Part shown: positions 2,566 to 34,712 of the stretch, in pieces | Numbering within the stretch: the stretch's first letter is position 1 | How the letters are laid out: every line of letters starts with the position of its first letter | DNA from: Plasmodiophora brassicae | Taxonomy: Eukaryota | DNA length: 64,000 nucleotides | Reading direction: 5' to 3' | Assembly: GCA_036867785.1 (NCBI GenBank) | Contig: CP145426.1 | Coordinates: 372,001-436,000, forward strand | Position numbers and translations under genes: made by a program | The notes under the pieces: model-generated | What the model saw: the letters and a program-made list of their open reading frames with translations, nothing else | Told to the model about the DNA's origin: nothing | The model's database searches: none

Positions 2566-3774
2566 GGGACGATCGGTGGTGGTTGTCTGTGGCGGTGGTA
2601 GAATATAGATGTGTGTGTGCCAGCGTCATCGCCTGTCACAGATCATTGAGCACTGGCTCGACGCGTTGACAGTATCTGACCTTTCCAGTTGACTCATGCG
2701 ACGCGAGTCAACGGCTGTGACCCAGCAGTGACAACGGTTCTTGACAGACAGTGGTGGGGGTGGTGGGCAGCCCGCTACAGATCGTGCTGCTTGGCGACGG
2801 GTCGCCGAATAAAACTGATGATGCGTGACGTCACGAAACCGAGTACGGTGCCGAGAAGCGTCTGCCATGACGACGGACACGACTGGCTTGCACCAAACGC
2901 GGCCTTGCACATGGTGCCGAGGTCGCACCGGTTGGCGATCCGATGTAGATGGCGCTGGAAGACGTCGCTGGGGCACGAGAGCGCGTTATCGCAGAACGGG
3001 ATCGGGATGGGGAGTTCATTGTGCAGAAGCTGAACGATGAATTGGCCGTCAGCACAGGCGTACGTATGGAAGGCAAGGTTTGCGGAATAGGGGACAATGT
3101 GACTCGTCCGCCAAGCGCGATGTGGCACCGACGACGAATCGGTCAGATTGTGGAACAATCCCTGATCAGGACGTCAAGGGAGCGCTGCATGCAAACACGA
3201 GCAACTGACCAGAATCCCGATCAGAGGCAGCAGCGATTCGGCGTGGCCGTGACGAATGTCAAGCAGCAGCGGTGACATGGTCCCATTCGTGATCGTCGAC
3301 ATGGACGACAGGATGTCGTCAACCAGGACGCAAGCCATGTCGTAGTTGATTGCGTTCCCAGGGCCCTGCAGCACGTTGGCCAGACTGCGATAGACGGGAT
3401 CCAGGTCGCGCCTACCTTTGCCCAGAAGTTCTCCAGGTCATCGACAGCCTCCAGCGCAGCGGCGTCTTCCGGCGAGAACAGGGGACAGGTCGTCGACGTA
3501 GTCAGCGCCAACATCTCCATCTTGCAGACCTGCCACAGCGGGTGTACGAGCGACTCGGGTATTCCGCCAGCGATTCGCCCTGCGATCCCGGGCGCGACCT
3601 GGCGCAGGCGCTGACGAGCATGGCGGACCGTGTCGGGCGCGCGGCGCGTCCTCTCGTACTCGGGGCACATGTCGAACGGCCTCAGCAGCGGGTCGGCATC
3701 CAGCGGCCCGGTCGTGTAGATGAACGCGGGTTGGTACCCATGCGGCGTAACGTTGCCAGCGCCGTGCCACAACC

Positions 3775-3942
3775 AATCGGGACACTGGTGCGACCTCGAG
3801 TCCGCAGAGTGCCTTAGATCAGCAATCATAGGGCGCCTCCCACATATACCGCGCAACACTGCCGTACGGCGTCCGTGGCGCACCAATTATACATTCTGCT
3901 ATCTGGCCTTGTCTGGTCTTGTCCGTGTCCTGCGTGCTAATT
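3775..3942 (+). repeat. 5' LTR (168 bp, AATCGGGAC...GCTAATT)
   Basis: Identical by eye to 8640-8807. The identity stops exactly at the TSD on the left and the PBS on the right. Confidence 0.95.
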
Positions 3943-3955
3943 GGTTTTGGGCCCA
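3943..3955 (+). promoter_or_regulatory. Primer-binding site, probably half-tRNAiMet (copia/Hemivirus type)
   Basis: GGTTTTGGGCCCA directly after the 5' LTR; 12/13 match to GGTTATGGGCCCA, the complement of the initiator tRNA-Met anticodon arm. Confidence 0.7.
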
Positions 3956-3967
3956 TCCCAAGCCTTA

Positions 3968-4060
3968 CCCCTGTCCCTGTTCCTGTCCCCGTCCCTGTCC
4001 CCGTCCCTGTCCCTGTTCCTGCCCCAGCCCCAGTTCCCGTACTGTCCCGTGTCCCAGCCC
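3968..4060 (+). repeat. Pyrimidine-rich hexamer tandem array (CCCTGT/CCCCGT/CCCAGC) in the retrotransposon leader
   Basis: ccctgtccctgttcctgtccccgtccctgtccccgtccctgtccctgttcctgccccagccccag... Confidence 0.85.
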
Positions 4061-4146
4061 GTGTCGTGATCCAGTTCGCGTTGTGACCGCCCGCGCCCCA
4101 CGCTCGGTTTGTACCCGTCCCTGTCCCCCTGCTCCCGCCGCCCGCA

Positions 4147-5094
4147 ATGGCGGAGGACTGGAACCAGATCGTCACAAACCTGAACTCTCAGATCCAGCAC
4201 CTGCAACAGCAACAACAACAACAGCAGCAGCTTCTACAACAACAGCACGATCAACTGCTACAACAGCAACAACTACTGCAGCAGCAACCGTCCCCACAAC
4301 AGCGAATGGTCTCACAGCATCATGTTTCCGAGCCCAAGGTCAAGCTCCCCCCCATCTACAACGGCGGCCGTGGAGAACTTCGCGGTTTCCTGAACCAAGT
4401 CAAGCTGGTTATCACCCAGCGGCCTGCCACCTATGCGACCGACGCTCAGAAGGTCGCGCTGGTGGGACAGCTGCTGGGTGGTGATGCTCTTCGGTGGTTT
4501 AATCCGTTGTTCGAAAAGGACGACGCGGTGCTGACGGAGTTCGTCGCCTTTATCAAGGCCTTCAAGACAAGGTTCGGTGACCCTCATCTAGCCGAGACTG
4601 CGGCACGGAAGCTACAGCATCTTCGTCAGGGCCGAGGCACTGTCGCCCGCTTCGCGACAGAGTTCCAAAACCTGGTGGCGGACGCCGGGTTCAACGACTC
4701 AGCCTGCCGACACATGTTCCGCGCCGGCCTGTCCAGGGACGTGCAGTTCCTGCTGCTGTCCCTGCCCGTCGCCGAGACGCTTGACGAGCTTGTCATACAG
4801 GCAATCCGGTGTGACAACCGCCTGGCCGAGCACCGATCGACCACCGCCCTCGTTCCTGTCCCTGCTGCCTCCGCCGCCGCAGTGCCGTCCGCTCCTCCCC
4901 CAGCCCCGGCCGCCGCGGTTGGGGATCCCATGGTTATCGACGCCGCGATCGGCGGTGGGCCCCGCGCGCCCTTAACCCAAGACGAGAAAGATCGCCGTCG
5001 TCGCGAAGGCCTATGCCTTTACTGCGGGGTGGCTGGCCATGTCGCAGTGTCCTGTCCCGTGCGTCCGCAGGGAAACGCCTCCCGGCGTGGCTGA
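4147..5094 (+). CDS. gag: Gag, Ty3/Gypsy sushi/PEG10-like capsid with CCHC zinc knuckle and N-terminal polyQ
   Basis: LPPIYNGGRGELRGFLNQV...KVALVGQLLGGDALRW...FGDP, LRQGRGTVARFATEF, GDPMVID, LTQDEKDRRRREGLCLYCGVAGHVAVSC. Confidence 0.92.
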   Translation: MAEDWNQIVTNLNSQIQHLQQQQQQQQQLLQQQHDQLLQQQQLLQQQPSPQQRMVSQHHVSEPKVKLPPIYNGGRGELRGFLNQVKLVITQRPATYATDAQKVALVGQLLGGDALRWFNPLFEKDDAVLTEFVAFIKAFKTRFGDPHLAETAARKLQHLRQGRGTVARFATEFQNLVADAGFNDSACRHMFRAGLSRDVQFLLLSLPVAETLDELVIQAIRCDNRLAEHRSTTALVPVPAASAAAVPSAPPPAPAAAVGDPMVIDAAIGGGPRAPLTQDEKDRRRREGLCLYCGVAGHVAVSCPVRPQGNASRRG

Positions 5095-5151
5095 AATCCC
5101 GGTCGGTCGCCACGCCTACCAATACACCTGTTCCATCATGCAACCCCGACC
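5070..5151 (+). promoter_or_regulatory. -1 programmed ribosomal frameshift signal (slippery G GGA AAC plus stem/pseudoknot)
   Basis: G_GGA_AAC at 5070-5076 in the gag frame, with pol in the -1 frame. After a 7-nt spacer GGCGTGGC (5084-5091) pairs with GCCACGCC (5109-5116); loop GGTCGG (5101-5106) can pair with CCGACC (5146-5151). Confidence 0.85.
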
Positions 5152-8100
5152 ACTTCTTTCCCGAGCCAAGTATGATTTCCGCGTCCACCAACCTCGTCGA
5201 GCACTTGGACCGTGTCCTAAGCATAGACGTGTCCCTTCAACTCGACAATGGCAAGACTGTACAGACGACGGCACTTATCGACTCAGGAGCAACCAACGAC
5301 TTCATACACTCCGACTTCGCCCGCGCTCACAACGTTCCGCTCACCAAGAAACCCGCACCGGTAGATCTGGAGGTAATTGACGGGCGGCGGCTACCGAAGG
5401 TGGCGCTGGAAACGGCCCCTGTCCGCCTCAGTATCGGCAACCACTCCGAATCGATCGTGCTGAACGTAATCGACTCCCCGCGATTCCCGATTATCCTCGG
5501 CATGACCTGGCTCTCAAGGCACAACCCGAGCATTAACTGGACACACCGAACGATGGAGATTACTCGTGTCGCTCAGGACGCCGCGCGCGAACAGAGCGAA
5601 CCCAAGGAAGCCATCACAGCCCTAACCTTGCACGACAATGGCGTATTCTCTCAGCAACCAGACCCACCACCTCAAGACCTCTCGCCACCCACACGACACG
5701 AACGGCGGTCGAGGGCCCGTGTTGACAGCGGCAAGGTGCCCTACGCCGTTCCGCTTCCCGGGGATTGGAACCAAGCCCAGAGTCTCAAGCGTTGGCACCA
5801 CCGCCTCGGCCACCGTAACCTGCGTGACGTCATCCTGATGGCAAATCATGACCTTACCGAATCCATGGAGATCCTGGCACAGAAGGTTGACAGGTTCTGC
5901 GAAGGGTGCGCTATCGCGAAAGCCAAGGAACGTCCTTTCCCCTCGGAGTCCAAAGAAAAACAGTGGAACGTGCTCGAGAGAATCGACGTCGACGAATGCG
6001 GACCGCTTCCCGTCGCCTCACTCAAAGGGGAGCGATACTTTATCACGTTCACGGAATTTGCAACCAGGATGAAATTTACCTTCCTGTTGCACCACAAGAA
6101 CCAGGCGCTGACCAAGTTCAAGGAGCTCAAGACTCGAATTGAGAATCGCCTGGAGAAATCCATTAAGATCCTCTTCGGCGACAACGATGGGGTATTCATC
6201 AACAACGAGTTCAAGGCGTTCTTGCAGGACAACGGGATCGAGTGGAGATCAACGGTGGAGTATTCCTCCAAGCAGAACGGTGTCTCCGAACGGGGACACC
6301 TGACGCTCATGGACTCCGGTCGCGCAATGCTCGTACACGCAAGGCTCCCCAAGCAGTTCTGGGGACCCGCAATTCTGACTGCCAGCCAGGTCCATAATCT
6401 CTGCCCCCACCCACGCGATCCCTCGACCACGCCCCATGAAATGCTGTCGCGCTCGAAACCTGATATCCGCTACCTTAGAACGTTCGGGTGCGACGCATAT
6501 GGCTACGTCCCGTCCAGCCAGAGAACGAAGCTGGACCCACGCGCCGTGAAAGGCATCTTCATCGGATATGCAGATCACCAGAAAGGGTACGTCCTCTATC
6601 ACCCTTCGTCCGGCCTGATCAAGGTGTACCGCAGCGTGACGTTCAGCGAAGACAGCTTCGGCGGCCGCAGTGCGGACGACGCCCTCGCCGATCCCGAGGA
6701 ACCTGAGTCTGGATACGACAGCGACTACGTTCCCTCCGGTGACGAACCCGCTGTCGAGGGGGCGCAGTCCGCCGCAGGCCCCAATGAGGATCCGCGACCT
6801 CCCACCGAACGAGCCCGGCGTCTCTCCCGCAAGCCAGACCGTTTAGGAGATCCCGTCCACCACGCCTGGATCGCGTCCCTGCAACCTACCAACGACGATC
6901 CTATTCACCACATGTGGATAGGTTCCACACATCAATGCGACGACGACGATGACGCCGCGCTCAATGCAGATGACCCCGACACTCCAAACACATATGAAGA
7001 CGCCATGGCAAGTCCCGAGGCAGAGTTCTGGACTAAGGCGATGGCCGATGAATTGAAGAGCCTGAAACAGCACAAGACATGGGAAGCCGTGGAGCGACTA
7101 CCCGTCGGGGCACGCCCCATCGGATGCCGCTGGGTCTACAAGCGCAAGATCACCAAGTCAAGTCAGATCCCGCCGGACACCACCTGGGTTCTCCGCCATG
7201 ACCCCGACGGTGTCACCTCCTACCGGTACAAGGCTCGACTATGCATACTCGGCTACAGACAGCGCCAGGGGATCGACTACACGAACACCTATGCGCCAGT
7301 CGTCCGGAGCGACATCCTCCGTCTAGTACTAGCCCTGTCCGTCCAAGACAAGGAGATCATCGCCGAGCAGATGGATGTGATGACCGCATTCCTCAACGCC
7401 CACCTCACCGAAGAGATCTACATGGACTCCCCGAAAGGGATGAAGGCCAGAACCCGTTTCGTCAAGCTCCTACGATCGATCTATGGCCTGAAACAGGCCC
7501 CAAGAGAATGGTTCAAGGTCATCGACGCCTTCCTCGTTAACGAATGCGGGTTCCAACGAGCCAAGTCCGCATCGTGCTTGTACTTCAAACGTGGTCCAAC
7601 TGGACGGCTCGTCATTGTTGGGGTCTACGTCGATGATATTCCCATCGTCGGACATCCCGAACTCGTACAGGAAACCAAGTCAGCCCTCTCGAAGAGATTC
7701 AAGATGTCGGACATGGGAGAGCTTCAATCAGTCATTGGCTTCGACGTCGATAGACAAGGTAGATCGGTGTTCCTGTCGCAAGAACGCTACACGAAAACTA
7801 TCCTCGACACCTACGGCATGGCCGAATCGCGCCCCGTCTCGACACCGGCAGATGCGAACTTGAAGTTATCCACATCACTGTGCCCGCAGAACCAGGCCGA
7901 TCGCGAACTTGCCGCCTTAGAAGGCCAGCGCATCAACTATCGAGCAGCGGTAGGTCACCTAATGTGGCTGCTGCACACCCGGCCAGACATCGCCTATGCG
8001 GTGAACGAGGTCTCCCGATACGTGCAAGACCCAGGGCCAGCGCACTTCGTCGCGCTGAAGCGAGTCTTCAGGTACCTCAACGGCACTCGCAACTACGGCC

Positions 8101-8696
8101 TCCTGTTCGAAGGAGGTGGGGAAACGGCCACACCGCTCCTGGTCGGCTACTCCGATTCTGATTGGGGTGGAGACCTCGACACACGACGATCGACTTCGGG
8201 GTGCGTGTTCCTTCTGAATGGCTGCCCGGTTTCATTTCGCTCTAAGAAGCAGACCACGGTCGCGTTATCGTCGTGCGAGGCGGAGACGGTGGCGTCAACA
8301 CTCGCGGCAACAGAAGGCGTCTGGTTGCGCAATGTGCTGGACGAACTAGGTTTTCCACAAGCTCAGCCTACACCTCTACACGTAGACAATCAGGGGGCGA
8401 TCGCGTTCGCCAACAGCGAAATCAACCACAGCAAGATGAAACATCTCGCGCTCAAGGACCACTTCGTCAGAGAACTGGTGGCATCCAACCAGATCAAGGT
8501 GCACTACGTCCGCTCGTGCGAGAACCTCGCCGACATCTTCACGAAACCGCTCGGAAAGCACAAGTTCGTAGAATTCCGTGCGGCCCTCAAGTGCGTACCG
8601 CATCCCCACATGAACTTGGACTCTCAGGTCGAGGGGGGGAATCGGGACACTGGTGCGACCTCGAGTCCGCAGAGTGCCTTAGATCAGCAATCATAG
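5070..8696 (+). CDS. pol: Pol (via -1 frameshift): Gypsy-type aspartic protease, GAG-pre-integrase, rve integrase, RVT_2 reverse transcriptase, Ty1-type RNase H
   Basis: ALIDSGATNDFI...IILGMTWLSRHNPSINW; WHHRLGH...CEGC; DECGP/GDND/NGVSER; KLDPRAVKGIFIGY; RYKARL, QMDVMTAFLN, SIYGLKQAPREW, YVDD; GYSDSDWGGD, DNQGAI, ADIFTKPL. Confidence 0.95.
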   Translation, partial: GKRLPAWLKSRSVATPTNTPVPSCNPDHFFPEPSMISASTNLVEHLDRVLSIDVSLQLDNGKTVQTTALIDSGATNDFIHSDFARAHNVPLTKKPAPVDLEVIDGRRLPKVALETAPVRLSIGNHSESIVLNVIDSPRFPIILGMTWLSRHNPSINWTHRTMEITRVAQDAAREQSEPKEAITALTLHDNGVFSQQPDPPPQDLSPPTRHERRSRARVDSGKVPYAVPLPGDWNQAQSLKRWHHRLGHRNLRDVILMANHDLTESMEILAQKVDRFCEGCAIAKAKERPFPSESKEKQWNVLERIDVDECGPLPVASLKGERYFITFTEFATRMKFTFLLHHKNQALTKFKELKTRIENRLEKSIKILFGDNDGVFINNEFKAFLQDNGIEWRSTVEYSSKQNGVSERGHLTLMDSGRAMLVHARLPKQFWGPAILTASQVHNLCPHPRDPSTTPHEMLSRSKPDIRYLRTFGCDAYGYVPSSQRTKLDPRAVKGIFIGYADHQKGYVLYHPSSGLIKVYRSVTFSEDSFGGRSADDALADPEEPESGYDSDYVPSGDEPAVEGAQSAAGPNEDPRPPTERARRLSRKPDRLGDPVHHAWIASLQPTNDDPIHHMWIGSTHQCDDDDDAALNADDPDTPNTYEDAMASPEAEFWTKAMADELKSLKQHKTWEAVERLPVGARPIGCRWVYKRKITKSSQIPPDTTWVLRHDPDGVTSYRYKARLCILGYRQRQGIDYTNTYAPVVRSDILRLVLALSVQDKEIIAEQMDVMTAFLNAHLTEEIYMDSPKGMKARTRFVKLLRSIYGLKQAPREWFKVIDAFLVNECGFQRAKSASCLYFKRGPTGRLVIVGVYVDDIPIVGHPELVQETKSALSKRFKMSDMGELQSVIGFDVDRQGRSVFLSQERYTKTILDTYGMAESRPVSTPADANLKLSTSLCPQNQADRELAALEGQRINYRAAVGHLMWLLHTRPDIAYAVNEVSRYVQDPGPAHFVALKRVFRYLNGTRNYGLLFEGGGETATPLLVGYSDSDWGGDLDTRRSTSGCVFLLNGCPVSFRSKKQTTVALSSCEAETVASTLAATEGVWLRNVLDELGFPQAQPTPLHVDNQGAIAFANSEINHSKMKHLALKDHFVRELVASNQIKVHYVRSCENLADIFTKPLGKHKFVEFRAALKCVPHPHMNLDSQVEGGNRDTGATSSPQSALDQQS
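8631..8639 (+). promoter_or_regulatory. Polypurine tract
   Basis: GAGGGGGGG directly 5' of the 3' LTR. Confidence 0.9.
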
Positions 8697-8807
8697 GGCG
8701 CCTCCCACATATACCGCGCAACACTGCCGTACGGCGTCCGTGGCGCACCAATTATACATTCTGCTATCTGGCCTTGTCTGGTCTTGTCCGTGTCCTGCGT
8801 GCTAATT
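8640..8807 (+). repeat. 3' LTR (168 bp)
   Basis: Direct repeat of 3775-3942, followed by TSD CAACC. Confidence 0.95.
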
Positions 8808-9546
8808 CAACCCATACGCCATGGCGCTGGCCGATTGCCCGGCACGGTGCTTCTGCGTGGACCTTTCACTGGTTCAGCGCCATGGAACGGGTGCGAACAG
8901 GTGCAACGACGACCTTAGTCGGCATCGTTCCGGGTGGTACGCTGACGCGAACAGGTCCGGGTGCCGTTCCCGGATCCGTCGTCCGAGTTCGAATTGTTCG
9001 TGCAGGCCGGCGACGGTGAGATGCCCGGCCAGCGCGTCGTCGAACGGGTCGTCGGGCATCCACGATCGCGACCCAAGCAATTGCTGCACGCGCTGGCGGA
9101 CGTCGCGGTACAGCCGTAGCTTCGATCGGGTCGGGTATCGCGACCCGTGACGAACGACCATGCTGATCTGGCGCAGGCGGCACTCGCCGACGACGCCGGG
9201 CGCCGGCGAGTGCCGCCACCGGTCGCCGTACGGCGTGCTCGACGACAGGTGCTGCCGAATATCGAACGACGCGTCGACGACGCCGACCCAGATCAGCGCC
9301 ATCATCGCCGCCGCAACCGCCATCCGACGGCCGCGACACAAAATCCGAATGGCCAACGTTGCGCGACTGCGCGCGCCACGTGCCGGTAACTCGTTCCCCG
9401 ATTCTGCGCGCGACTGCCGTGACTGGGACACGCAATCTCGACCCGTACGCGGCTACGTCGCGCGGCGAATGTTGCGTGACTGTGCGTCCCGTCTCCCGCT
9501 ACGCGACACCGCGCGACTGGTGATCTGACACGAGGGTACACATGAC

Positions 9547-11357: not shown

Positions 11358-11387
11358 ACGGGCGGATCGCTCCCCGGGTACTGATCA

Positions 11388-12827
11388 ATGTCAAGGCGTA
11401 AGGCGGGACGCGAGAACCCTGGTGGCGATGGGGGTGCTGCTGACCTGAGTCCGACGAAACGGGCGACCGGCGAGACGGCGTCGATGATCGCCGCCCGGGA
11501 ACTCCTTCTGATCCCTGTCGCACAGTCATTGTCGTCGTCGCCGAAGAAGGCGGCGCCGCGTGCGCCTAGTCAGATCCGGTACCGTACCGCGTTCCACACG
11601 ACGATCGGCGATGTGCTGAGGGCGCGCGGGTGGAAGGAGACGGACAGCGACTTGGACTGGGACATCTTCTGGGCCGACGCGACCTGGATTCGCGACGTGT
11701 ACGACCACGTGCACCTGGAGACGCACCAGCGCGTGAACCACTTCCGCAACCATTACGAGCTGACGCGAAAGGATCTGCTCGTGAAGAACCTGAAGCGGGC
11801 GCGGCGCCTGCTGCTGAAGCACGGGAACAGCGACGAGGCCGCCAAGTACGACTTCTCGCCAACCACGTTCAACCTACCCGCCGAGTACTCGCTGTTCGTC
11901 GAGGAGTTCAAGAAGAACCCGACGACCAGCTGGATCATGAAGCCCATCGCGAAGTCGCAGGGCAAGGGCATCTTCCTGTTCCAGAAGCTGAGCGAGATCA
12001 GCGACTGGCGCAACCGGCATCGATCGTTCTCCAAGCAGCAAGACCCGGACAATGGGTCCTCCTCGAACAACACCCTCGTTGCTGAATCCTACGTCGTCCA
12101 GCAGTACATCTCGAACCCCTACCTTGTCGGCGGTAAGAAGTTCGACATGCGTGTCTACGTCCTCGTCACCAGCTACTCGCCGTTAACGATCTACGCGTAC
12201 CGGAGCGGGTTCGCCCGCTTTTCGACGTCCCGATTCTCGATGTCGAACTCGGACCTGACCGACCACCACATCCACCTGACGAACGTCGCGATACAAAAGT
12301 CGGCGCCAAAGTACGACCCGTCCAACGGTGGGAAATGGTCGCTGCGAAACTTGAAGTTGTATATGGTCGCGAAATGCGGCGAGGCGCGCGCCAACCAGCT
12401 CTTCAACGACATGCAGTTGGCGATCATCCGGTCGCTGATCGCCGTCCGGAAGGTGATGATCAACGACAAGCACAGTTTTGAGCTGTACGGGTACGACCTG
12501 CTGTTCGACACGAGCCTGAAGGTGTGGCTGCTGGAGGTGAACGCGTACCCGTCGTTGTCAGCGAACACGCCCAGCGACTACAAACTGAAGTGCGACCTGC
12601 TCGACGACGTCCTCCATGTCGTCGACGTCGAGAACAGGCTGTCGGGCGACGAGGTCCAGGTCGGCGGGTTCGACCTGATCTACAGGAACGGGCTGATCCG
12701 GAACGACAAGGCGTGCGCGATCCAGTCGTACCTCGGGTGCCACAACAACCGAGTCGAACAGCTGGCCGCCATGGAGAAGCAACGACAGGCGACTAAGAAG
12801 GCGACCCTAGCTGCCACAGCGCGATAG
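11388..12827 (+). CDS. TTLL9: Tubulin polyglutamylase (TTL family), TTLL9-like
   Basis: VNHFRNHYELTRKDLLVKNLKR, WIMKPIAKSQGKGIFL, YLVGGKKFDMRVYVLVTSY, HLTNVAIQK, FELYGYD, WLLEVNAYPSL. Confidence 0.88.
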   Translation: MSRRKAGRENPGGDGGAADLSPTKRATGETASMIAARELLLIPVAQSLSSSPKKAAPRAPSQIRYRTAFHTTIGDVLRARGWKETDSDLDWDIFWADATWIRDVYDHVHLETHQRVNHFRNHYELTRKDLLVKNLKRARRLLLKHGNSDEAAKYDFSPTTFNLPAEYSLFVEEFKKNPTTSWIMKPIAKSQGKGIFLFQKLSEISDWRNRHRSFSKQQDPDNGSSSNNTLVAESYVVQQYISNPYLVGGKKFDMRVYVLVTSYSPLTIYAYRSGFARFSTSRFSMSNSDLTDHHIHLTNVAIQKSAPKYDPSNGGKWSLRNLKLYMVAKCGEARANQLFNDMQLAIIRSLIAVRKVMINDKHSFELYGYDLLFDTSLKVWLLEVNAYPSLSANTPSDYKLKCDLLDDVLHVVDVENRLSGDEVQVGGFDLIYRNGLIRNDKACAIQSYLGCHNNRVEQLAAMEKQRQATKKATLAATAR

Positions 12828-14104: not shown

Positions 14105-15452
14105 GTCCGGTGCTGGTTCCCGGTGTGGGCGGAAGCCAGTGTGGGGCGCTGGCAAACGCAACGGTGCGACGATGACCGCAGACGGTGACGTCAAGTCCGC
14201 CACGGACTGCGCCACGGACTTCCCCAGTTGTGCGCGCAGAGACCCGCGCGACTTCCTGCGTTCACCGTTGTAAAGAAGTCCCGAGACTTAACTCGCGACA
14301 GCATACCCAGCGGCCTCACGCTAAGCGCTTCGGGTCCACTTACACGTATTGCAGTAACCCAGCATGATCGTAGCCGGTCCAGACAGGCACTCGGGAACGA
14401 TGACGGAACAGGATAGTCCATCTGAGGACTGCCACGTACCTGCGCCCTCTCTGTCCAGGTGGCGCTACCCCCGACTCCACTTGTGCCTGTATAGAAACGA
14501 TGATTGCAGAAGGCGCACTGAAGGACGCTGAGCTGGTTAACAGAAACCACTTATTGGTGAGGGACGTAACCGAACCGGACTGGGACTGCGTCTGGTTCAC
14601 CTCGATCGAGCAGCGACGGTTCACGCATTGAGTGTTTGCTGTGTTGGCTGGCAGAAACGTACCGTTGGAATGGAAACGAGTTCGGTTTGTCCACTTCACT
14701 GTTTACTTTCACGAGCGTCTCATGTCGAGCAGTAACCAACTGAACCTTATTCGAATGTTTGCCGAAACCTGCCCAGGTCGGGGCCCGTAAGTCATGGCTC
14801 CTTCCCAGGCTTGGACGCCTGCATGTCTATCGCTGATCAGCATGTCGTCGGTCGCCAAGCTCACACCGGCGCGTAATCGGTTTAGTTGCTCTTGTGCTTG
14901 AAAATGTTCGGCGCTGAATCTAAAATCGCGTATCATCCCAATTCTACCTGCGTGCGCGCGCTGGGCTTCCGCCCAGTCGTCGACGTCGCCGAACCAGTAT
15001 ACGGCGAGTGTATACAGAGGTTATCGCAGGATATCCTTAGCGTATCAGAAGATAAAGGAAAACAACTGTACTTGGGCATGGTCCCAACGAGAGGCTTATG
15101 TGGTCCAGGGTTGAGATCGTGGCTTGCATGCTGGTCGTTCTCAGGCTAATTAAAGAATCAGGAACGAAAGGCCAGCTGCAACAAAGTGTCTTCGTGACTG
15201 GCCCGGCAGTGCTGCAAGTGAATCATATCGATGCCGTTTGCAGCGTTGCAACGCTTCCCGCTGGCACGTCGGCTCGTTGCCGACGACGACGGAACCCTTG
15301 GATCTATAAGTAGACTGCAATTGTGGTCAGGCGCAGTTCTGGGAAGTGTGGACTGGCGGCAGGCGCAGAGCCGCGCTGGCGGAGTCCGCGGGCGCGCACC
15401 GGCCGGCCGGTCTCAGCCTGATATTTGCCGTGAACCAGAGCAGCGATTGGCA

Positions 15453-17072
15453 ATGACAGACGGCGGGCGTTACCCAAGTGTCGTTCTGATGTGCATCCTC
15501 CTGACCCTTGGCGTCAGTTACGCGATCCCCGCTGTGCTGTACGATAATGTAAGTCACTCGCGTCGATCGTCGATATTGATCACTGGTTCGGCACTGATTA
15601 CTACCAACTAGGTACTGCCACAGGGCGGCAGTATCAGTGGCTGGGTTCGCGATAACCTCCCAAGCCTCGCTGATCGAATGCGTGTGCTTGAAGCCGCACA
15701 GTTCCTTCAGATGTGCGACCTCGAGCAGTGCATCGCCTCCATGGAGTACACGAGTGCGGACATTGCTTGGATCCTGCGCGAGACCCATTTGGCCGAGACG
15801 ACATTGGAACGCATTGTGGAGGGAACCCCAGCCTACAGGATGCTGCGTGATGCCGATGTGAAGCAAGACGGCATCCAGCAAAAGGAAGCCATCGTGGAAG
15901 AGATTCGGACGCTCCTTATCACCGGATATGGCGATATCGACTTAGTGAACAACGGATGCTTTGATAGGAACTTCAACGTGTTGCACTGGGCCACTTTCCG
16001 CAACCGTCCCGAGGTTGTCGAGCTGTTACTCAGTATCCCCGGCGTGGTCGTCACCGACTGGCCCAAACCCAACGGACATGGCTTTGTATCACCGCTACAG
16101 CACGCTGAATTACATGGGTTTACTCGTCTTGTCGAGCTCCTGCTACGGTTCCCAGATATCGCTGTCGACGCAGGCGCCGGCACACCATGGGGCACGACCC
16201 TTCATCTGGCCGCGGGCAAGTTCAGCCACGAAGACGGATCGGATGGCACCCGGATCGTGGAGTTACTGATTGGCCATGGGGCAAACGTCAGCGCGCTTGA
16301 CGCGCGTGGCAGTACCCCACTACACGCTGCGGCAGAGTTCGGCCGGACGGATATTGTCGAGGTGCTACTCGACAACGGCGCCGATATCAATCACCAGGAC
16401 AGCCGAGACGGCCGAACGCCGTTGCATGAGGCCGTGGCCTGGGGACAGGAGGCTTGCGTTGACATGCTGATTCGTAATGACATGGTCGACACCAGTCTGA
16501 AGGACCAAGGGGTCGGACGGCATTTGACCTTGGCCGACGACCAGGCGTCGTGGACCTGGATGCGACGACCCCCAACTGATCATCTGCTTGCATGGCTCGA
16601 CACATGTCCATACAGAATGCCCTCCACCATGCAACCACATCCATTGCGATTCATTTCGTTGAGGAAGCTAACCTTGCGGATGGACGCTTCCGATTTCGCC
16701 ATCGGCCTGGTAGCGTCGCAGCATCGGGCCAGCGGTCTGATGCGTCCTGCTGCCTTCCCTTGCAGTCAGCTGTCACCCGCCGACATCATCTGCGAAACGC
16801 ACAACAAGGAGCTGTGCGCGACCATCGAGGCGTCCGTACGCCGGCGCCAATGCCAGCTGAAGGGCTACGCGCCGACCTACCGTAACCTTGCAGTACGATT
16901 CAAGTTCGAAAGTGCTGGATCCTCGACAAGCGCGCGCTCGTCGATGACCCTTGTCGAGTACGACCCCCGCGTCGCTGCCGCATTGGACGCTGCCGTCAAA
17001 GCATTCGATAACGAAGTCGCGTTGGAGACGCCCCTGGTATGGTGTGTATATGGGCGGAGCACGTCAGTTTGA
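15453..17072 (+). CDS. Signal-peptide, truncated Skp1-like + ankyrin-repeat protein whose ORF reads on into a Gypsy RNase H relic
   Basis: Exon 1 MTDGGRYPSVVLMCILLTLGVSYA (15453-15548), intron gtaagt..ag, RVLEAAQFLQM, and ankyrin repeats (GSTPLHAAA, GRTPLHEAV). Confidence 0.8.
16674..16865 (+). mobile_element. Degenerate Ty3/Gypsy RT-RNaseH fragment
   Basis: MDASDFAIGLVASQ...RPAAFPCSQLSPADIICETHNKELCATIEA matches the TDASDFAIGAVLSQ...PVAY.S.KL..AE.NY..HDKELLAI pattern. Confidence 0.8.
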
Positions 17073-18052
17073 CATCAGCGATGAGTGGCGACGTTCGACG
17101 TGGGCGTAGGTAATGTCGTTACGGCAGAAGACCTCGGTGAAGAACCCCCCGCTTTGCAGCCCGAACGACACGGTGCCGAACACTGTCGACCATGCAGTGA
17201 CTAGGCGTATCATCACTGTGCCGGACGATACGAAACGTTGCTTACTCAGCATTGCACCCAGGAAGGTGATGATTAAATTCTCGGTGGTCTGCCCCCGATG
17301 GACGCCGATGATGATCGGCGGGATGCTGTTCGCGACGGCGACGATGACGATCTCGAAGACGATCGTCTTGACGCCGATTCTCCAGTCGCGAACCGTCAGC
17401 GCCAGGCCGGTCATGGTCAGGAACAGGACGCCAATGATGATGCGTAACCACAGCAAGGACTTGACCATGGACAGCAACTCGATCTGCTCCCTGTCGGTAC
17501 GTGCACCCGACGACGGTGCATCGGCGTTCTCGTTGCTGTTCATGCCCGACAGCTCCATCAGCACGTTGCTATGCGACAATCGGATGATTCAGGGCGTTGG
17601 CGAACAGCGAACGCGCTCGGCGATCCTCACAAGATGAAGAAGACGAGGAAGGCAATCATGAACGCATTGGCGGCGTCCTTGAATGGCGTCCTGCGGTTGT
17701 AGGCGAGTACGATGGTCGGGACGGCGGTGCACGCGCCGACGATCACACATTCCGACAGGAAGTACTTTGGGTTTCCGCAGACGAACGACGTGTCCGCGTT
17801 GATGAATGCGAACAGCAGCAGGACGACGATCATGGACGCCTTGCCTGTCAGGACGCCGTACTCGAACAGCCGGTTCGGCCGGATATCCTGCATCTTCCTC
17901 GTGACGTTCTGGACCGTGCCTTGCATGACGTCCGCGATGGCGTCCGACGGCTTCGCCAGGTGGTGCCTGAGGGCGACCGGGACCGATGCCGTCAGCTGTG
18001 TGTCGCGCCCGCCCTGGAACACCAGGGCCTCATTGTCATCCGACGACGACAT
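17064..18052 (-). CDS. Polytopic membrane protein of unknown function, paralog A (spliced)
   Basis: Hydrophobic ORF segments 17627-18052 and 17064-17579, highly similar to 19926-20888. Confidence 0.75.
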
Positions 18053-19925: not shown

Positions 19926-20888
19926 TCAACACGTATCGTTGCTGGGGTGCTCAATGGCGTTCATCATTGACATAGATAACGCTTTTGCAGAAGACGTTTG
20001 TGAAGAACCCGCCGCTCTGCAGGCCGAACGCCAGGGTGCCGAACACTGTCGCCGAGCAATCAGGGCACACAGAGCACGCGACAGCAACAAGGCATTGATC
20101 CTACGTAGCAGAGAGCCGACGAAGGTCGTGACCAGGTTGGCGGTGTCTTGCCCCCGGTGGATGCCGATGATGATGGGCGGGACGCTGTTGGACACGCCCA
20201 CGACAACCATCTCGACGACGATGGTCTTGAACCCGATCTTCCAGTCGCGGACGGTCAGCGCCAGCCCCGTCATGACGAGGAACAGGACGCCGATGATGAT
20301 GCGCAGCCACAGCAGCGACTTCACCATCGAGATCATCTCGATCTGCTGCGCGTCCGCTCGCTGCCCTGGGGCCGAGGCGTCCGCGTTCTCGTTGCTGTTC
20401 ATCCCCGAGAACTCCATCAGGACGTTGCTGATCGGACGCAATCTGGTCAGTAGCAGGTTCTGTCTGGCACTGTCGCGAACACCTCACAAGATGAAGAACA
20501 CAAGGAATGCGATCATGAACGCGTTGGAAGTGTCCTTGACGGGCGTCTTGCGGTTGTACGCCAGCACGATGGTCGGGATCGCGGTACAGCCGCCGACGAT
20601 GATGCACTCGGAGATGAAGAACTTTGGGTTGTAGCAGACGAACGACGTGTCGGAGTTGATGATCGCGAACAGCAACAGGACGAGGATCATGGACGCCTTG
20701 CCGGCCAGGACGCCGTACTCGAACAGATGGTTCGGCCTGATGTCCTGCATGCGCCGGGCGACGTTCTGCACCTTGTCCTGCATGGCCTCCGACGCGCTTG
20801 CCAGGTGCTCCCGGATCGCAACCGGCGACTGGCTGCGATTAGGTTGGACGACGAGAGCGCCCTGACCCTGCGAAGGTGAAGATTCCAT
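19926..20888 (-). CDS. Polytopic membrane protein of unknown function, paralog B (spliced)
   Basis: IRPNHLFEYGVLAGKASMILVLLLFAIINSDTSFVCYNPKFFISEC...; same intron positions as paralog A. Confidence 0.75.
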
Positions 20889-23095: not shown

Positions 23096-23268
23096 GCCCT
23101 TCAGCTGGCATTGGCGCCGGCGTACGGGATCGCCATCAGCGCCTTGTTGTGCGTTTCGCAGATGATGTCGGCGGGTGACACAGGCAGCAGGACGCATCAG
23201 GCCGCTGGCCTGATGCTGCAACGCTCCCAGGGCGATGCCGAAATCGGAAGCGGCCATCCGTAAGGTTA
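23096..23268 (-). mobile_element. Second copy of the degenerate Gypsy RNaseH fragment
   Basis: LRMAASDFGIALGALQHQASGLMRPAA; homologous to 16674-16865. Confidence 0.75.
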
Positions 23269-24447
23269 CCTTCCGTTGCAAGCCGCCCGATTCCAGTTCG
23301 CAGCCTCGTGCAACGGCGTCCGCCCTTGTTTGTTCTGGCGATTGATATTGGCGCCGCTCTTGAGTAGCTCTTCGACAATATCCGTCCGTCCGTACTGCGC
23401 CGCATAGTGTAGTGGTGTACTGCCACCCCCGTCAACCGCGTCGACGTCTGCCCCATGGTCGATCAGTAACGTCACGATTCCGGTGCCATCCGATCTCTCA
23501 TCGTCGTCGTACTTGGCCGCGTCGAGATGCAGAGCTGTGCCAAGTCCAATTCCGGCGCCTGCGTCGACCTCGATATCTGGGAACCGTAGCAGCAGCTCGA
23601 CAAGACGAGTGTACCCATGGTGTGCAGCGTACTGTAGCGGGGACACAAAGTCATGTGGATTGCGGGGAAAGTCGGTGACGATCACGCCGGGAATACTGAG
23701 TAACAGCTCTACAACCTCGGGATGATTGTCTGTAGTGGCCCAATGCAGCGCGGTAAAGTCCCCATCAAACCCTCCGTTGTTCACCAAGTAGATGTTGCCA
23801 TGACCGGTGATAAGGAGCGATCGAATCTCTTCCATGATGGCTTCCTTCCGCTGGATGCTGTATTGCGTCACATCGGCATCACGCAGCATTTGGTAGGCTG
23901 GGGTTCCCACTACAATGCGTTCTAATGTCGTCATGGGCAGACGGGTCTCGCGGCGCCGGATCCAAGCAATGTCCTCGCAGGTGTACTTCATGGGTTCGAT
24001 GTACCGCTCGAGGCGCCCCATCTGAAGGTACTGTGCGGCTTCCAGCATACGCATTCGATCAGCGAGGCTTGGGAGGTTAACGCGAACTCAGCGACGAGTT
24101 GTACTGCGGCCCTGTGGCAGTAGTTGGTAGTGATCAGTGATCATCGACGATCGACACAAGTGACTTACATCATCGGCATCAACTGTCGCGATGTAGTTTG
24201 CGAACAGTCGCAGCTCCTTTTCAGCGACCCGCTCCAGGGCAAAGGGGCGGATTAAACGCGCTGGGACATCTTCGACGAGATTCTGCAGACAACCGGAGTG
24301 GGCGGTGGCGCGCTTGGACTTGACCTTGCAACAGATATTGTAACCTCCGTCGTAAAGGTACAACCTACGAGGGGTCGCGAAACTGACGCCAAGGGTCAGG
24401 GCGATGCACGTCAGAACGACACTTGAGTAACGCCCGCCGTCAGCCAT
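23266..24447 (-). pseudogene. Signal-peptide Skp1/BTB-like + ankyrin gene, inverted paralog of 15453-17072, with an in-frame TGA
   Basis: MADGGRYSSVVLTCIALTLGVSFA, POZ-like exon 1 and the same intron. TGA at 24090-24088 aligns with TGG (Trp) in the paralog. Ankyrin repeats follow, truncated at the 3' end. Confidence 0.7.
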
Positions 24448-24727
24448 TGCCAATCGGTGCTCTGGTTCAGGGCAAGTATCAGAATGAGACGCCGGCCGGT
24501 ACGCGCCCGCTGTCAGCTGCGCTCCCGCGGACTCCGTGCGGACTCCGTACCATGGAGATTGGAGTCTGCGGCACCTTCCCGAAACAACACATGGCACCGA
24601 TGCAAGCGTGAAGGTCTGGATGGCGAGCAGCGGCTGACCCATCGCAGGTGCAACCTCCACGTCCGCGCCCTCAACGCATGCCGGGAGCGTATAAACGCAG
24701 TTACGCCTGTATTTAAACGAACGACAC

Positions 24728-34422: not shown

Positions 34423-34712
34423 GGTTTGGCTATGCGATGCGCAGGCACCACCGGTGAATCCTAAGGCTATCCGATAGCGGAATGATCAACCGGCGCAGAA
34501 GCCGGAATTCGGAAATCATCACCGGATCGATCCACGTCAGTGTCGTCCTTGGCCGGAAGCTGGCCACCTATCAAGTCATGCAATGATCCGGGCAACGTCA
34601 GTTGCGTCACGACCAGCGGCACGAACTGCGGGCCCCTATCGACGTCGTTGAACGTGGCTCTGTATTGTCGGATGAATCGGTTTCCTGACCTTGGCCTAGG
34701 GAAACGATGGCG

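What the first reader, a model, noticed from the sequence alone, without database searches (positions are those of the whole stretch)
3775..8807. Intact chimeric LTR retrotransposon: Gypsy/PEG10-type Gag-protease fused to a Copia-type integrase-RT-RNaseH
Seen: a single LTR pair encloses a Gag with the sushi/PEG10-like capsid, PMxID and RRRREGLCLYCG knuckle, then a Gypsy-type protease (LIDSGA...ILGMTWL.RHNP.INW, ~5270-5560). The same open frame continues through a ~75-aa linker into GAG-pre-integrase (WHHRLGH, 5793), rve, RVT_2 (YVDD, 7626) and Ty1-type RNase H. Established: IN-RT-RH order and these motifs define Ty1/Copia, while this Gag and protease belong to Ty3/Gypsy; the two superfamilies normally do not swap modules. 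No Copia-type Gag or protease is visible. Inference: a recombinant lineage that packages a Copia enzyme set in a Gypsy capsid and has recently been mobile.
Basis: partly seen in the sequence, partly recalled or inferred. Interest (0 to 1): 0.95.

Follow-up and report, generated by a model that had tools for sequence, protein, structure and literature searches.

The report
Gypsy-capsid, Copia-enzyme hybrid retrotransposon
This is an intact, recently inserted jumping gene of the clubroot parasite whose shell and protease genes come from one great retrotransposon superfamily (Ty3/Gypsy) and whose integrase, reverse transcriptase and RNase H come from the other (Ty1/Copia), a combination that is shared by a small old lineage and that I could not find described.

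Summary
Window 3775-8807 is a complete 5,033-bp LTR retrotransposon: two identical 168-bp LTRs, a 5-bp target duplication (CAACC), gag (4147-5094) and a pol frame (to 8696) reached by a -1 shift at G_GGA_AAC. Pfam, profile-profile comparison and pairwise identity all split it at 5580-5790. Gag and protease are Ty3/Gypsy chromovirus type (43% and 51% identical to a canonical chromovirus, no detectable match to a Copia relative). Integrase, RT and RNase H are Ty1/Copia type (47-52% identical to a canonical Copia, RT and RNase H not alignable to the chromovirus).

It is not an assembly chimera. Contigs from independent sequencing runs span the junction. Five diverged relatives (45-54% identity, environmental metagenomes) have the same protease-integrase fusion, and one locus with upstream DNA has the same Gag and the same slippery site. 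The identical protein in public records is from Plasmodiophora brassicae. A second copy from that species shares a near-identical integrase-RT-RNase H but has a 78%-identical protease and an unalignable linker, so modules are still being exchanged at this junction.

Whether the lineage is nested in Copia or branches at its base is unresolved. Seven literature searches found no description.

The parts
3770..3774 (+). Target-site duplication CAACC (left copy)
   Evidence: Read; same 5 bases follow the 3' LTR.
3775..3942 (+). 5' LTR, 168 bp, termini AAT...ATT (not TG...CA)
   Evidence: 100% identical to 8640-8807. Boundaries confirmed by contigs of other runs that leave the element exactly at 3775 and 8807 (table 7).
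3942..3955 (+). Primer-binding-site-like TGGTTTTGGGCCCA, overlapping the last LTR base
   Evidence: L001 has TGGTTATGAGCCCA (584-597) upstream of its gag, 12 of 14 bases the same. The primer tRNA is not identified; no tRNA gene in the window.
3960..4043 (+). CCCTGT-type short tandem repeats in the 5' untranslated leader
   Evidence: Read; flagged as skipped repeats.
4147..5094 (+). gag: Gln-rich N-terminus, Ty3/PEG10-type capsid, one CCHC knuckle; stop TGA 5092-5094
   Evidence: PEG10 capsid 7lga E 4.4e-11; 43% identity to Gag of chromovirus P0004 over 242 aa.
5070..5076 (+). Slippery heptamer G_GGA_AAC in the gag frame, for the -1 shift into pol
   Evidence: Read. The identical heptamer lies at the same distance (15 nt) before the gag stop in L001, although the two Gags are 35% identical.
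5084..5116 (+). Stem-loop 7 nt after the slippery site (GGCGTGGC / GCCACGCC)
   Evidence: MFE -23.4 kcal/mol, but z only -1.59 (14 of 200 shuffles fold as well), so not significant on its own.
5229..5579 (+). Aspartic protease, Ty3/Gypsy type (DSG at 5280-5288)
   Evidence: RVP_2 1.4e-7; hhalign vs Gypsy proteases E 8e-42, vs Copia proteases E 8e-6; 49.6% identity to P0004.
5580..5738 (+). Variable linker; holds the junction between the two parental modules and the recombination breakpoint between P. brassicae subfamilies
   Evidence: identity to P0306 jumps from unalignable to about 99.7% at KVPYAVPLPGDW, nt about 5739. (contigs of X1, X2 and X6 end or start at 5736-5771). (Gypsy match ends at 5579, Copia match starts at 5796).
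5739..6659 (+). Integrase, Ty1/Copia type: HHCC (5778-5921), DDE core (5988-6266), SH3 (6453-6659)
   Evidence: invariant H238, H243, C272, C275, D303, D366, E402; 48% identity to Copia P0046.
7176..7850 (+). Reverse transcriptase, RVT_2 (YVDD at 7626-7637)
   Evidence: 1.2e-58; 47% to P0046; no significant alignment to the P0004 RT, z 0.4.
8037..8564 (+). RNase H, Ty1/Copia type
   Evidence: 51.5% to P0046 over 169 aa; invariant D1024/D1026, E1065, D1101, D1150. No Pfam model hit it.
8631..8639 (+). Polypurine tract GAGGGGGGG, lying inside the pol reading frame (encodes the conserved C-terminal VEGG)
   Evidence: Read; VEGG(N/S) ends all five aligned Pols.
8640..8807 (+). 3' LTR; the pol frame runs 57 nt into it (stop 8694-8696)
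8808..8812 (+). Target-site duplication CAACC (right copy)

Best explanation
This is an autonomous, recently transposed LTR retrotransposon of Plasmodiophora brassicae. It belongs to an old recombinant lineage.

- The 5' half (gag, the -1 frameshift signal and the protease) descends from a Ty3/Gypsy chromovirus-like element.
- The 3' half (integrase, reverse transcriptase, RNase H and the polypurine tract) descends from a Ty1/Copia element.
- The two halves are joined in frame within a variable linker at about 5580-5790.

Inferred working:
- Transcription starts in the 5' LTR.
- Gag is made alone. About 15 nt before its stop, ribosomes slip -1 at G_GGA_AAC and make Gag-Pol.
- The Gypsy-type protease cuts the polyprotein.
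- A Ty3/PEG10-type capsid encloses the RNA together with the Copia-type RT/RNase H and integrase.
- cDNA is primed at the TGG... site beside the 5' LTR and at the G-rich purine tract.
- The Copia-type integrase inserts it with a 5-bp duplication.

Shown here: the anatomy, the module affinities, conservation of the fusion in relatives, and continuity of the junction. Inferred: frameshifting, processing, particle formation, priming, and how the recombinant first arose.
For: Anatomy and integrity:
- Identical 168-bp LTRs and the CAACC duplication.
- Open gag and pol frames.
- Catalytic residues invariant across relatives.

Module affinities:
- Pfam: Retrotrans_gag, Ty3_capsid, DUF4939 and RVP_2 on the 5' half; gag_pre-integrs, rve, SH3_retrovirus and RVT_2 on the 3' half.
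- Family protease profile vs Gypsy proteases: 100% probability, E 8e-42 over 113 columns. Versus Copia proteases: 83.5%, E 8e-6.
- Family Gag vs Gypsy Gags: 100%, E 4e-53 over 249 columns. Versus Copia Gags: 92%, E 6e-7.
- Reciprocal pairwise test, window protein vs chromovirus P0004 and vs Copia P0046:
  - Gag: 43% (z 89) vs none (z 2.0).
  - Protease: 51% (z 50) vs none (z -0.7).
  - Integrase: 24% (z 6.9) vs 48% (z 114).
  - RT: none (z 0.4) vs 47% (z 97.5).
  - RNase H: none (z 1.0) vs 51.5% (z 65).
- P0004 is a canonical Gag-RVP_2-RVT_1-RNaseH-Integrase_H2C2-rve-SH3_Tf2-Chromo element.
- The Gag capsid C-terminal domain hits PEG10 (7lga, E 4.4e-11).

A lineage, not a one-off:
- Four full-length Pols (P0041, P0042, P0043, P0003; 47-54% identity, 91-94% coverage) and P0307 of L001 (45%) align through protease and integrase.
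- RVP_2 is found in 5 of 7 family Pols, generic retropepsin families in the other 2, and Pol_BBD in 0 of 7.
- L001 is the only relative with upstream DNA. It has a homologous Gag (Retrotrans_gag 1.1e-11, Ty3_capsid), pol in the -1 frame, and the same G_GGA_AAC 15 nt before the gag stop.

Not an assembly artefact:
- Contig record 28 of run X9 covers 4841-6565 with 2 differences.
- X1 record 5 covers 5175-5771 with none.
- X2 record 10 covers 4898-5736 with none.
- 20 runs of 10 studies hold 90% or more of the sampled words.

Mobility:
- Other flanks abut the LTR ends, including ...AAGGTT|LTR (X2, X6) and LTR|AGGTTC... (X1). That fits a second insertion with a 5-bp duplication.
- Summed contig depth is about 4-16 times that of the flanks. 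The tool warns that this is not a copy number.

Closest non-family relatives keep Copia parts:
- 6 of 6 tested have Pol_BBD, and 2 have Retrotran_gag_2.
- The protease of P0044 matches Copia proteases at E 1.6e-33.
- In the 918-column IN-RT-RNase H tree, the family plus (P0044, P0059) is a 99* group beside (P0046, P0196) and P0012.
Against: - Rooting is unresolved. With Gypsy RTs as outgroup, the quick tree put family+P0044+P0059 in a 96* clade. But an AU test did not reject a tree in which all 47 other Copia RTs form one clade and the family sits next to the Gypsy root (p-AU 0.71). That tree even had a log-likelihood 11.8 higher than the free quick tree. So 'nested within Copia' is not shown.
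- Family monophyly has only 73% support.
- The protease tree is unresolved. A single acquisition is neither shown nor rejected (p-AU 0.27).
- The Gypsy comparison sets were picked by similarity to the query.
- The frameshift stem-loop is not better than shuffles (z -1.59).
- The LTR ends are AAT...ATT, not the usual TG...CA.
- The primer tRNA is unidentified.
- Gag is known for only 2 family loci.
- P0003 has DGA in place of DSG, and L001 has a damaged RNase H, so some relatives are dead copies.
- No run on record as RNA was listed, so expression is untested.
Confidence: 0.85

Rival explanations
1. Relic rather than recombinant: the lineage is the earliest branch of Ty1/Copia and has kept an ancestral Gypsy-like Gag and protease. 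The Copia-type Gag and protease arose once in the other branch.
For: The AU test does not reject the family sitting next to the Gypsy root, with all 47 other Copia RTs as one clade (p-AU 0.71, higher likelihood). On the unrooted IN-RT-RNase H tree, a root on the family stem would need only one change of Gag/protease type.
Against: Gag and protease normally evolve fastest, yet here they are 43% and 51% identical to one present-day chromovirus. RT and RNase H give no significant alignment to the same element. The family proteases lie among chromovirus proteases rather than outside them (weakly resolved). Such unequal divergence needs a transfer long after the Gypsy/Copia split.
Confidence: 0.05
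2. Assembly chimera, or one element nested in another, that only looks like a single element.
For: Short-read contigs of X1, X2 and X6 break at about 5736-5771, close to the junction.
Against: One uninterrupted reading frame runs 4815-8696. There is a single identical LTR pair with a target duplication. The X9 contig covers 4841-6565 with 2 differences. The same fusion is present in five independent metagenome proteins and in L001. The contig breaks coincide with a subfamily breakpoint also seen in protein P0306, which explains them.
Confidence: 0.02
3. A Gmr1-like Ty3/Gypsy element, that is, a Gypsy whose integrase has merely moved in front of RT so that only the domain order looks Copia-like.
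For: The order PR-IN-RT-RH together with a Gypsy Gag and protease is what such an element would show.
Against: RT is RVT_2 at 1.2e-58 with no RVT_1 hit. Integrase carries gag_pre-integrs and SH3_retrovirus, not Integrase_H2C2, SH3_Tf2-1 or Chromo. IN, RT and RNase H are 47-52% identical to a canonical Copia.
Confidence: 0.01
4. The architecture is real but already catalogued (for example in Repbase or in a genome paper's supplement), so nothing is new beyond one more copy.
For: P. brassicae genomes have been annotated for Gypsy and Copia repeats (passages). The Pol is in public protein records as a hypothetical protein or an integrase-domain protein. Repbase, subscription journals and supplements could not be searched.
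Against: Seven full-text searches and passages of four papers gave no description of a Gypsy Gag-protease joined to a Copia pol. Muszewska 2011 reports RVP_2 as a Ty3/Gypsy marker and RVT_2 as a Ty1/Copia marker. The protein atlas returned only Pol_BBD-type clusters for the junction region (a lead only).
Confidence: 0.3

Closest known systems
Ty1/Copia (Pseudoviridae) LTR retrotransposons, e.g. the metagenome and Logan relatives P0046 and P0044
   Same: Order PR-IN-RT-RH. RVT_2 reverse transcriptase. Integrase with the gag_pre-integrs HHCC region and SH3_retrovirus. Copia-type RNase H. 5-bp target duplication. 44-52% identity over IN, RT and RNase H.
   Different: No Copia Gag (Retrotran_gag_2/3) and no Copia protease (Pol_BBD). 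gag and pol are in separate frames joined by a -1 shift, whereas most Copia are one frame (recalled) and Ty1 uses +1 (recalled).
Ty3/Gypsy chromoviruses (Metaviridae), e.g. P0004; domesticated relatives PEG10 and sushi-ichi
   Same: Gag with Retrotrans_gag, Ty3_capsid and DUF4939 plus one CCHC knuckle. RVP_2 protease ending ILGMxWLxxHNPxIxW. 43% and 51% identity to P0004. Capsid C-terminal domain matches PEG10 7lga.
   Different: No RVT_1, RT_RNaseH, Integrase_H2C2, SH3_Tf2-1 or chromodomain. Integrase lies before RT.
Gmr1-like Ty3/Gypsy elements with Copia-like pol order (Goodwin and Poulter 2002; only the reference title was seen; content recalled)
   Same: Gypsy Gag and protease followed by IN-RT-RH.
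   Different: In Gmr1 all domains are Gypsy by phylogeny (recalled). Here IN, RT and RNase H are Copia by sequence.
P0060, a metagenome Copia polyprotein
   Same: A Copia backbone (Pol_BBD, gag_pre-integrs, rve, RVT_2) carrying a Gypsy-type Gag (Retrotrans_gag 1.4e-14, Ty3_capsid 1.6e-6).
   Different: It keeps the Copia protease, has a chromodomain between IN and RT, and lies far from this family in the trees. It is therefore a separate event.

Membership tests
LTR retrotransposon (general) | Pair of direct long terminal repeats flanked by a short target-site duplication | tested here: met
   168-bp LTRs 100% identical; CAACC on both sides.
LTR retrotransposon (general) | Primer binding site after the 5' LTR and polypurine tract before the 3' LTR | tested here: inconclusive
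   GAGGGGGGG abuts the 3' LTR. A TGG-starting motif abuts the 5' LTR and is 12/14 conserved in L001. No tRNA could be matched (no genome held).
LTR retrotransposon (general) | TG...CA LTR termini | tested here: not met
   Termini are AAT...ATT. The boundaries are fixed by the duplication and by other copies' flanks.
Ty1/Copia (Pseudoviridae) | pol order PR-IN-RT-RH | tested here: met
   domain positions.
Ty1/Copia (Pseudoviridae) | Copia-type RT (RVT_2), integrase and RNase H by sequence | tested here: met
   RVT_2 1.2e-58; 47-52% identity to P0046; groups with RVT_2 proteins.
Ty1/Copia (Pseudoviridae) | Copia-type Gag (Retrotran_gag_2/3, UBN2 families) | tested here: not met
   No such Pfam hit at E<=0.1. 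hhalign to Copia Gags gives only E 6e-7, against 4e-53 to Gypsy Gags.
Ty1/Copia (Pseudoviridae) | Copia-type protease (Pol_BBD) | tested here: not met
   0 of 7 family Pols hit Pol_BBD. hhalign gives E 8e-6 to Copia proteases against 8e-42 to Gypsy proteases.
Ty3/Gypsy (Metaviridae), chromovirus branch | Gypsy-type Gag and RVP_2 protease | tested here: met
Ty3/Gypsy (Metaviridae), chromovirus branch | RVT_1 RT, RT_RNaseH, order RT-RH-IN, Integrase_H2C2, chromodomain | tested here: not met
   None found in P0002; all are present in P0004.
Gmr1-like Gypsy | Gypsy-type RT and IN in Copia-like order | tested here: not met
   RT and IN are Copia type.
-1 programmed ribosomal frameshift signal | X_XXY_YYZ heptamer in the upstream frame within the gag/pol overlap | tested here: met
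   G_GGA_AAC at 5070-5076. The same heptamer is at the same distance from the stop in L001.
-1 programmed ribosomal frameshift signal | Stable downstream structure 5-9 nt after the heptamer | tested here: inconclusive
   An 8-bp GC-rich stem lies 7 nt downstream, but z is -1.59 and 14 of 200 shuffles fold as well.
-1 programmed ribosomal frameshift signal | Frameshift product made | not testable with these tools
   Needs translation assays or mass spectrometry.

The most novel reading that the evidence does not exclude
This would be the first recognised lineage of LTR retrotransposons born from recombination between the two great superfamilies, Metaviridae and Pseudoviridae. A chromovirus capsid, nucleocapsid, frameshift signal and protease have served a Copia integrase, RT and RNase H long enough for members to diverge to about 45% identity. 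Exchange at the protease|integrase seam is still going on inside P. brassicae (P0306). A second, unrelated Copia lineage with a Gypsy Gag (P0060) suggests that such cross-superfamily swaps recur. If so, capsid and enzyme modules of Ortervirales are far more interchangeable than the current classification assumes.
Probability: 0.5. Interest if true: 0.85.

Novelty: new variant of a known kind. Interest (0 to 1): 0.78.

Why it matters
**Classification.** LTR retrotransposon superfamilies, and the virus families Metaviridae and Pseudoviridae, are defined by pol order and by congruent Gag, protease, RT and IN phylogenies. A stable, active lineage that mixes them shows that a Ty3-type capsid and protease can package and process Copia-type enzymes. 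It gives a natural system for asking which Gag-Pol, protease-substrate and capsid-RNA contacts are really required.

**Annotation.** It warns that tools which classify by a single domain will mislabel such elements.

**The host.** In P. brassicae repeats are reported as 11-14% of the genome and linked to structural variation (passages). This family is multi-copy, mosaic and apparently recently mobile, and here it sits inside a histidine phosphatase gene. It is therefore a candidate source of structural polymorphism between isolates.

Tried and rejected
**Searches with nothing usable**
- No whole genome is held for this window. Copy number, other full copies, solo LTRs, tRNA matching of the primer site and the P0306 locus could not be examined directly.
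- The window holds no second copy and no solo LTR.
- No tRNA genes in the window.
- Earlier findings of the scan: nothing by place, sequence or words.
- The metagenome locus scan confirmed only 3 loci, one with upstream DNA. The DNA of P0041, P0042, P0043 and P0003 could not be fetched, so their Gags are unknown.
- The protease had no sequence match in the PDB at E<=1.
- The protein atlas returned only Copia (Pol_BBD) clusters with scores under 0.9 for the junction region. This is a lead only and says nothing on absence.

**Expression and site occupancy**
- No RNA holder was listed among sequencing runs. Several runs are only guessed to be RNA, so nothing can be said on expression.
- No contig joined across an empty site in the four runs laid. 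This is no evidence that the insertion is fixed.

**Trees**
- The RT tree rooted with Gypsy has a very long outgroup branch, and the quick search was not at the optimum. I therefore do not rely on it for rooting.

**Readings considered and rejected**
- Assembly chimera.
- Gmr1-like Gypsy.
- Divergent Copia Gag and protease. See the rival explanations.

**Not run**
- Structure prediction and complex prediction. The sequence evidence already decided the questions they could address.

Full report
**1. What is there**

Window 3775-8807 is bounded by two 168-nt direct repeats that are 100% identical. The same five bases, CAACC, lie directly outside both repeats (3770-3774 and 8808-8812).

Inside are two overlapping reading frames on the + strand:
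- gag, with its ATG at 4147 and its TGA at 5092-5094;
- a 1,293-codon open frame, 4815-8696, in the -1 frame relative to gag. It ends 57 nt inside the 3' LTR.

A run GAGGGGGGG abuts the 3' LTR. It lies inside the pol frame, where it encodes a C-terminal VEGG that is conserved in all aligned relatives. TGGTTTTGGGCCCA starts at the last base of the 5' LTR.

The LTR ends are AAT...ATT, not TG...CA. I leave this unexplained.

**2. Domain content**

Pfam results:

| Protein | Family | E-value |
|---|---|---|
| Gag | Retrotrans_gag | 5.4e-14 |
| Gag | DUF4939 | 1.2e-9 |
| Gag | Ty3_capsid | 2.2e-9 |
| Pol | RVP_2 | 1.4e-7 |
| Pol | gag_pre-integrs | 8.1e-7 |
| Pol | rve | 7.2e-6 |
| Pol | SH3_retrovirus | 1.7e-25 |
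| Pol | RVT_2 | 1.2e-58 |

There was no Copia Gag family and no Pol_BBD, the Copia protease barrel. The capsid C-terminal domain matches the solved PEG10 capsid domain (7lga, E 4.4e-11).

Muszewska et al. 2011 (passages read) report RVP_2 with Ty3/Gypsy and RVT_2 with Ty1/Copia in fungi. This is the expectation the element breaks.

**3. Where the seam lies**

In a tblastn against the window:
- Chromovirus P0004 matches 4324-5106 (Gag, 38%) and 5229-5579 (protease, 49.6%), and nothing further in the element.
- Copia P0046 matches 5796-6746 (IN, 44%) and 6984-8555 (RT-RNase H, 44%), and nothing before.

P0004 is itself a textbook chromovirus: Gag, RVP_2, RVT_1, RT_RNaseH, Integrase_H2C2, rve, SH3_Tf2-1, Chromo.

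Domain-by-domain local alignments with shuffling controls:

| Module | vs chromovirus P0004 | vs Copia P0046 |
|---|---|---|
| Gag | 43% of 242 aa (z 89) | none (z 2.0) |
| Protease | 51% of 115 aa (z 50) | none (z -0.7) |
| Integrase | 24% (z 6.9) | 48% of 286 aa (z 114) |
| RT | none (z 0.4) | 47% of 219 aa (z 97.5) |
| RNase H | none (z 1.0) | 51.5% of 169 aa (z 65) |

Profile-profile comparisons agree:
- Family proteases vs 19 Gypsy proteases: E 8e-42. Versus 46 Copia proteases: E 8e-6. That is about the background Gypsy-Copia level of 8e-5.
- Family Gags vs 13 Gypsy-type Gags: E 4e-53. Versus 42 Copia Gags: E 6e-7. Background is 2e-9.

A caveat: the Gypsy sets were gathered by similarity to the query.

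**4. A lineage, not an accident**

A search with the whole Pol found four proteins covering 91-94% of it at 47-54% identity: P0041, P0042, P0043 and P0003. All come from environmental assemblies. A locus scan found a fifth, L001/P0307, at 45%.

All align through the protease motifs (VIDGR, ILGMxWL, HNPxIxW) into the integrase HHCC. Across the seven family Pols:
- RVP_2 is found in 5 of 7;
- generic retropepsin families are found in the other two;
- Pol_BBD is found in 0 of 7.

L001 is the only relative with upstream DNA. It has:
- a Gag 35% identical to the window's, with Retrotrans_gag and Ty3_capsid;
- pol in the -1 frame;
- the identical heptamer G_GGA_AAC 15 nt before the gag stop;
- a primer-site-like motif with 12 of 14 bases the same.

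The fusion is therefore old and kept by selection. Some members are dead copies: P0003 has DGA in place of DSG, and the RNase H of L001 is damaged.

**5. Not an assembly artefact; signs of mobility**

A 100% identical 563-aa protein in public records is annotated as Plasmodiophora brassicae, and a 1,299-aa version comes from another assembly of that species. Twenty runs from ten studies hold at least 90% of the sampled words of the element.

Four runs from four studies were laid on the element:
- Contigs cover the seam. X9 record 28 covers 4841-6565 with 2 differences. X1 record 5 covers 5175-5771 with none. X2 record 10 covers 4898-5736 with none.
- Other contigs leave the element exactly at 3775 and 8807 into different flanks. 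These include ...AAGGTT|LTR and LTR|AGGTTC..., which fits a second insertion with its own 5-bp duplication.
- Summed depth inside is about 4-16 times that of the flanks. The tool warns that this is not a copy number.

With 0 differences in 168 bp the insertion is young. So short an LTR bounds divergence only to under roughly 1.8%; this is my own arithmetic (3/168).

**6. Exchange still going on at the seam**

The second P. brassicae protein, P0306, is about 99.7% identical to the window's Pol from KVPYAVPLPGDW (nt about 5739) to the end. Upstream, the protease is only 78% identical and the linker is barely alignable.

Short-read contigs of three runs break at 5736-5771, and variant contigs start at 5707. 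That is what an assembly graph does at such a breakpoint. LTR variants that share only parts of the LTR also appear (loose ends at 3814 and 3891). The family in this genome is therefore a mosaic of subfamilies that recombine at the protease|integrase boundary.

**7. Direction and depth of the event**

The nearest non-family relatives keep Copia parts:
- 6 of 6 tested have Pol_BBD, and two have Retrotran_gag_2.
- The protease of P0044 matches Copia proteases at E 1.6e-33 and Gypsy proteases not at all.

In a 918-column IN-RT-RNase H tree, the family plus (P0044, P0059) forms a 99* group. Next to it come (P0046, P0196) and then P0012, apart from 24 other Copia. Family monophyly has only 73% support.

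Rooting with Gypsy RTs first gave a 96* clade of family+P0044+P0059. An AU test then did not reject a tree with the family beside the Gypsy root and all 47 other Copia together (p-AU 0.71). That tree had a higher likelihood than the quick tree. I therefore do not claim that the family is nested in Copia.

The case for a transfer from a chromovirus rests on section 3. The fastest-evolving genes are 43-51% identical to a living chromovirus, while RT is not alignable to it. Vertical descent from the Gypsy/Copia ancestor cannot give that pattern. The protease tree is too short to resolve one acquisition from several (p-AU 0.27).

**8. How it most likely works (inferred)**

- Gag is translated alone. 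A minority of ribosomes slip -1 at G_GGA_AAC. The heptamer fits the X_XXY_YYZ rule (recalled).
- An 8-bp GC stem lies 7 nt downstream, but it is not better than shuffles (z -1.59).
- The Gypsy-type protease then has to cut a polyprotein whose downstream part is Copia. The variable linker probably carries the protease/integrase cleavage site.
- The catalytic residues of integrase (HHCC, DDE), RT (YVDD) and RNase H are invariant in the family.

How the recombinant arose is open. Two routes are possible: template switching between co-packaged RNAs, or read-through of one element nested in another. If the 5' half brought U5 and the primer site while the 3' half brought the purine tract and U3, the first LTRs would have been hybrids. 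That might bear on the odd termini. This is speculation.

**9. Surroundings**

The element lies inside a histidine phosphatase (branch 2) gene on the minus strand:
- Profile positions 2-100 are at 8877-9452 (E 3.3e-11).
- Weak colinear matches to positions 150-251 are at 3224-3772 (E 0.006).
- Weak colinear matches to positions 311-354 are at 2778-3173 (E 0.023).

I cannot say whether the insertion is in an exon or an intron.

**10. Known or new**

Seven full-text searches and passages of four papers found no description of a Gypsy Gag-protease joined to a Copia pol. The four papers were:
- the P. brassicae pangenome preprint;
- Llorens 2009;
- Muszewska 2011;
- a rhizarian genome preprint.

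The hits for 'copia-like pol' are, as far as checked, citations of the Gmr1 paper. Gmr1 concerns Gypsy elements with a changed domain order; its content is recalled. Repbase, Dfam, subscription journals and supplements were not searchable, so prior cataloguing cannot be excluded.

I rate this a new variant of a known kind. The parts and the life cycle are those of LTR retrotransposons. The cross-superfamily combination, its age and its continuing exchange are what is new.

Noticed in passing
window 2778-3772 and 8877-9452, minus strand: The retrotransposon sits inside a histidine phosphatase (His_Phos_2) gene. The N-terminal part (profile 2-100, E 3.3e-11) is on one side. Weak colinear matches to profile 150-251 and 311-354 are on the other. 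Exon or intron not determined; the pieces were not joined.
   Followed up: partly
protein P0060 (metagenome; not in the window): A Copia polyprotein with a Gypsy-type Gag (Retrotrans_gag 1.4e-14, Ty3_capsid), a Copia protease (Pol_BBD 1.4e-16) and a chromodomain between integrase and RT. It is far from this family in the trees and groups with P0149, which also has a chromodomain. This looks like a second, independent cross-superfamily swap.
   Followed up: partly
protein P0306 (other P. brassicae assembly) against window 5172-5738: Same IN-RT-RNase H (about 99.7%) but a 78%-identical protease and a barely alignable linker. After FRAALK its C-terminus runs on into unrelated Cys-rich sequence up to 1,299 aa, which may be a gene-model fusion with a neighbour.
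   Followed up: partly
window 3775-3777 and 8805-8807: LTR termini are AAT...ATT instead of the usual TG...CA. The boundaries are confirmed by the target duplication and by other copies' flanks. Unexplained.
   Followed up: partly
window 16662-16935, + strand: A remnant of a Ty3/Gypsy RNase H (40% identical to P0004 over 57 aa; RT_RNaseH_2 3e-7). It lies in the same stop-to-stop frame as an ankyrin-repeat gene (15612-17069).
   Followed up: no
window 15410-16755 and 23182-24490; 17124-17924 and 19987-20781: Large inverted repeats (81-90% complementary, arms up to 326 nt, about 6.4-8.8 kb apart) and direct repeats (76-88%, about 2.86 kb apart). They suggest a duplicated block around the ankyrin-repeat gene.
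   Followed up: no
window 11385-12824, + strand: A tubulin-tyrosine ligase family gene (TTL, E 9e-82). The large open frames 29173-34485, 37907-41122 and 25661-27922 (minus strand) have no Pfam match at E<=0.001.
   Followed up: no
window 4180-4321: The Gag N-terminus is a CAG/CAA-rich stretch encoding a Gln/Leu-rich segment (family D1). One contig in run X2 skips 114 nt here, 4176 to 4291, so the length of this repeat may vary between copies.
   Followed up: no
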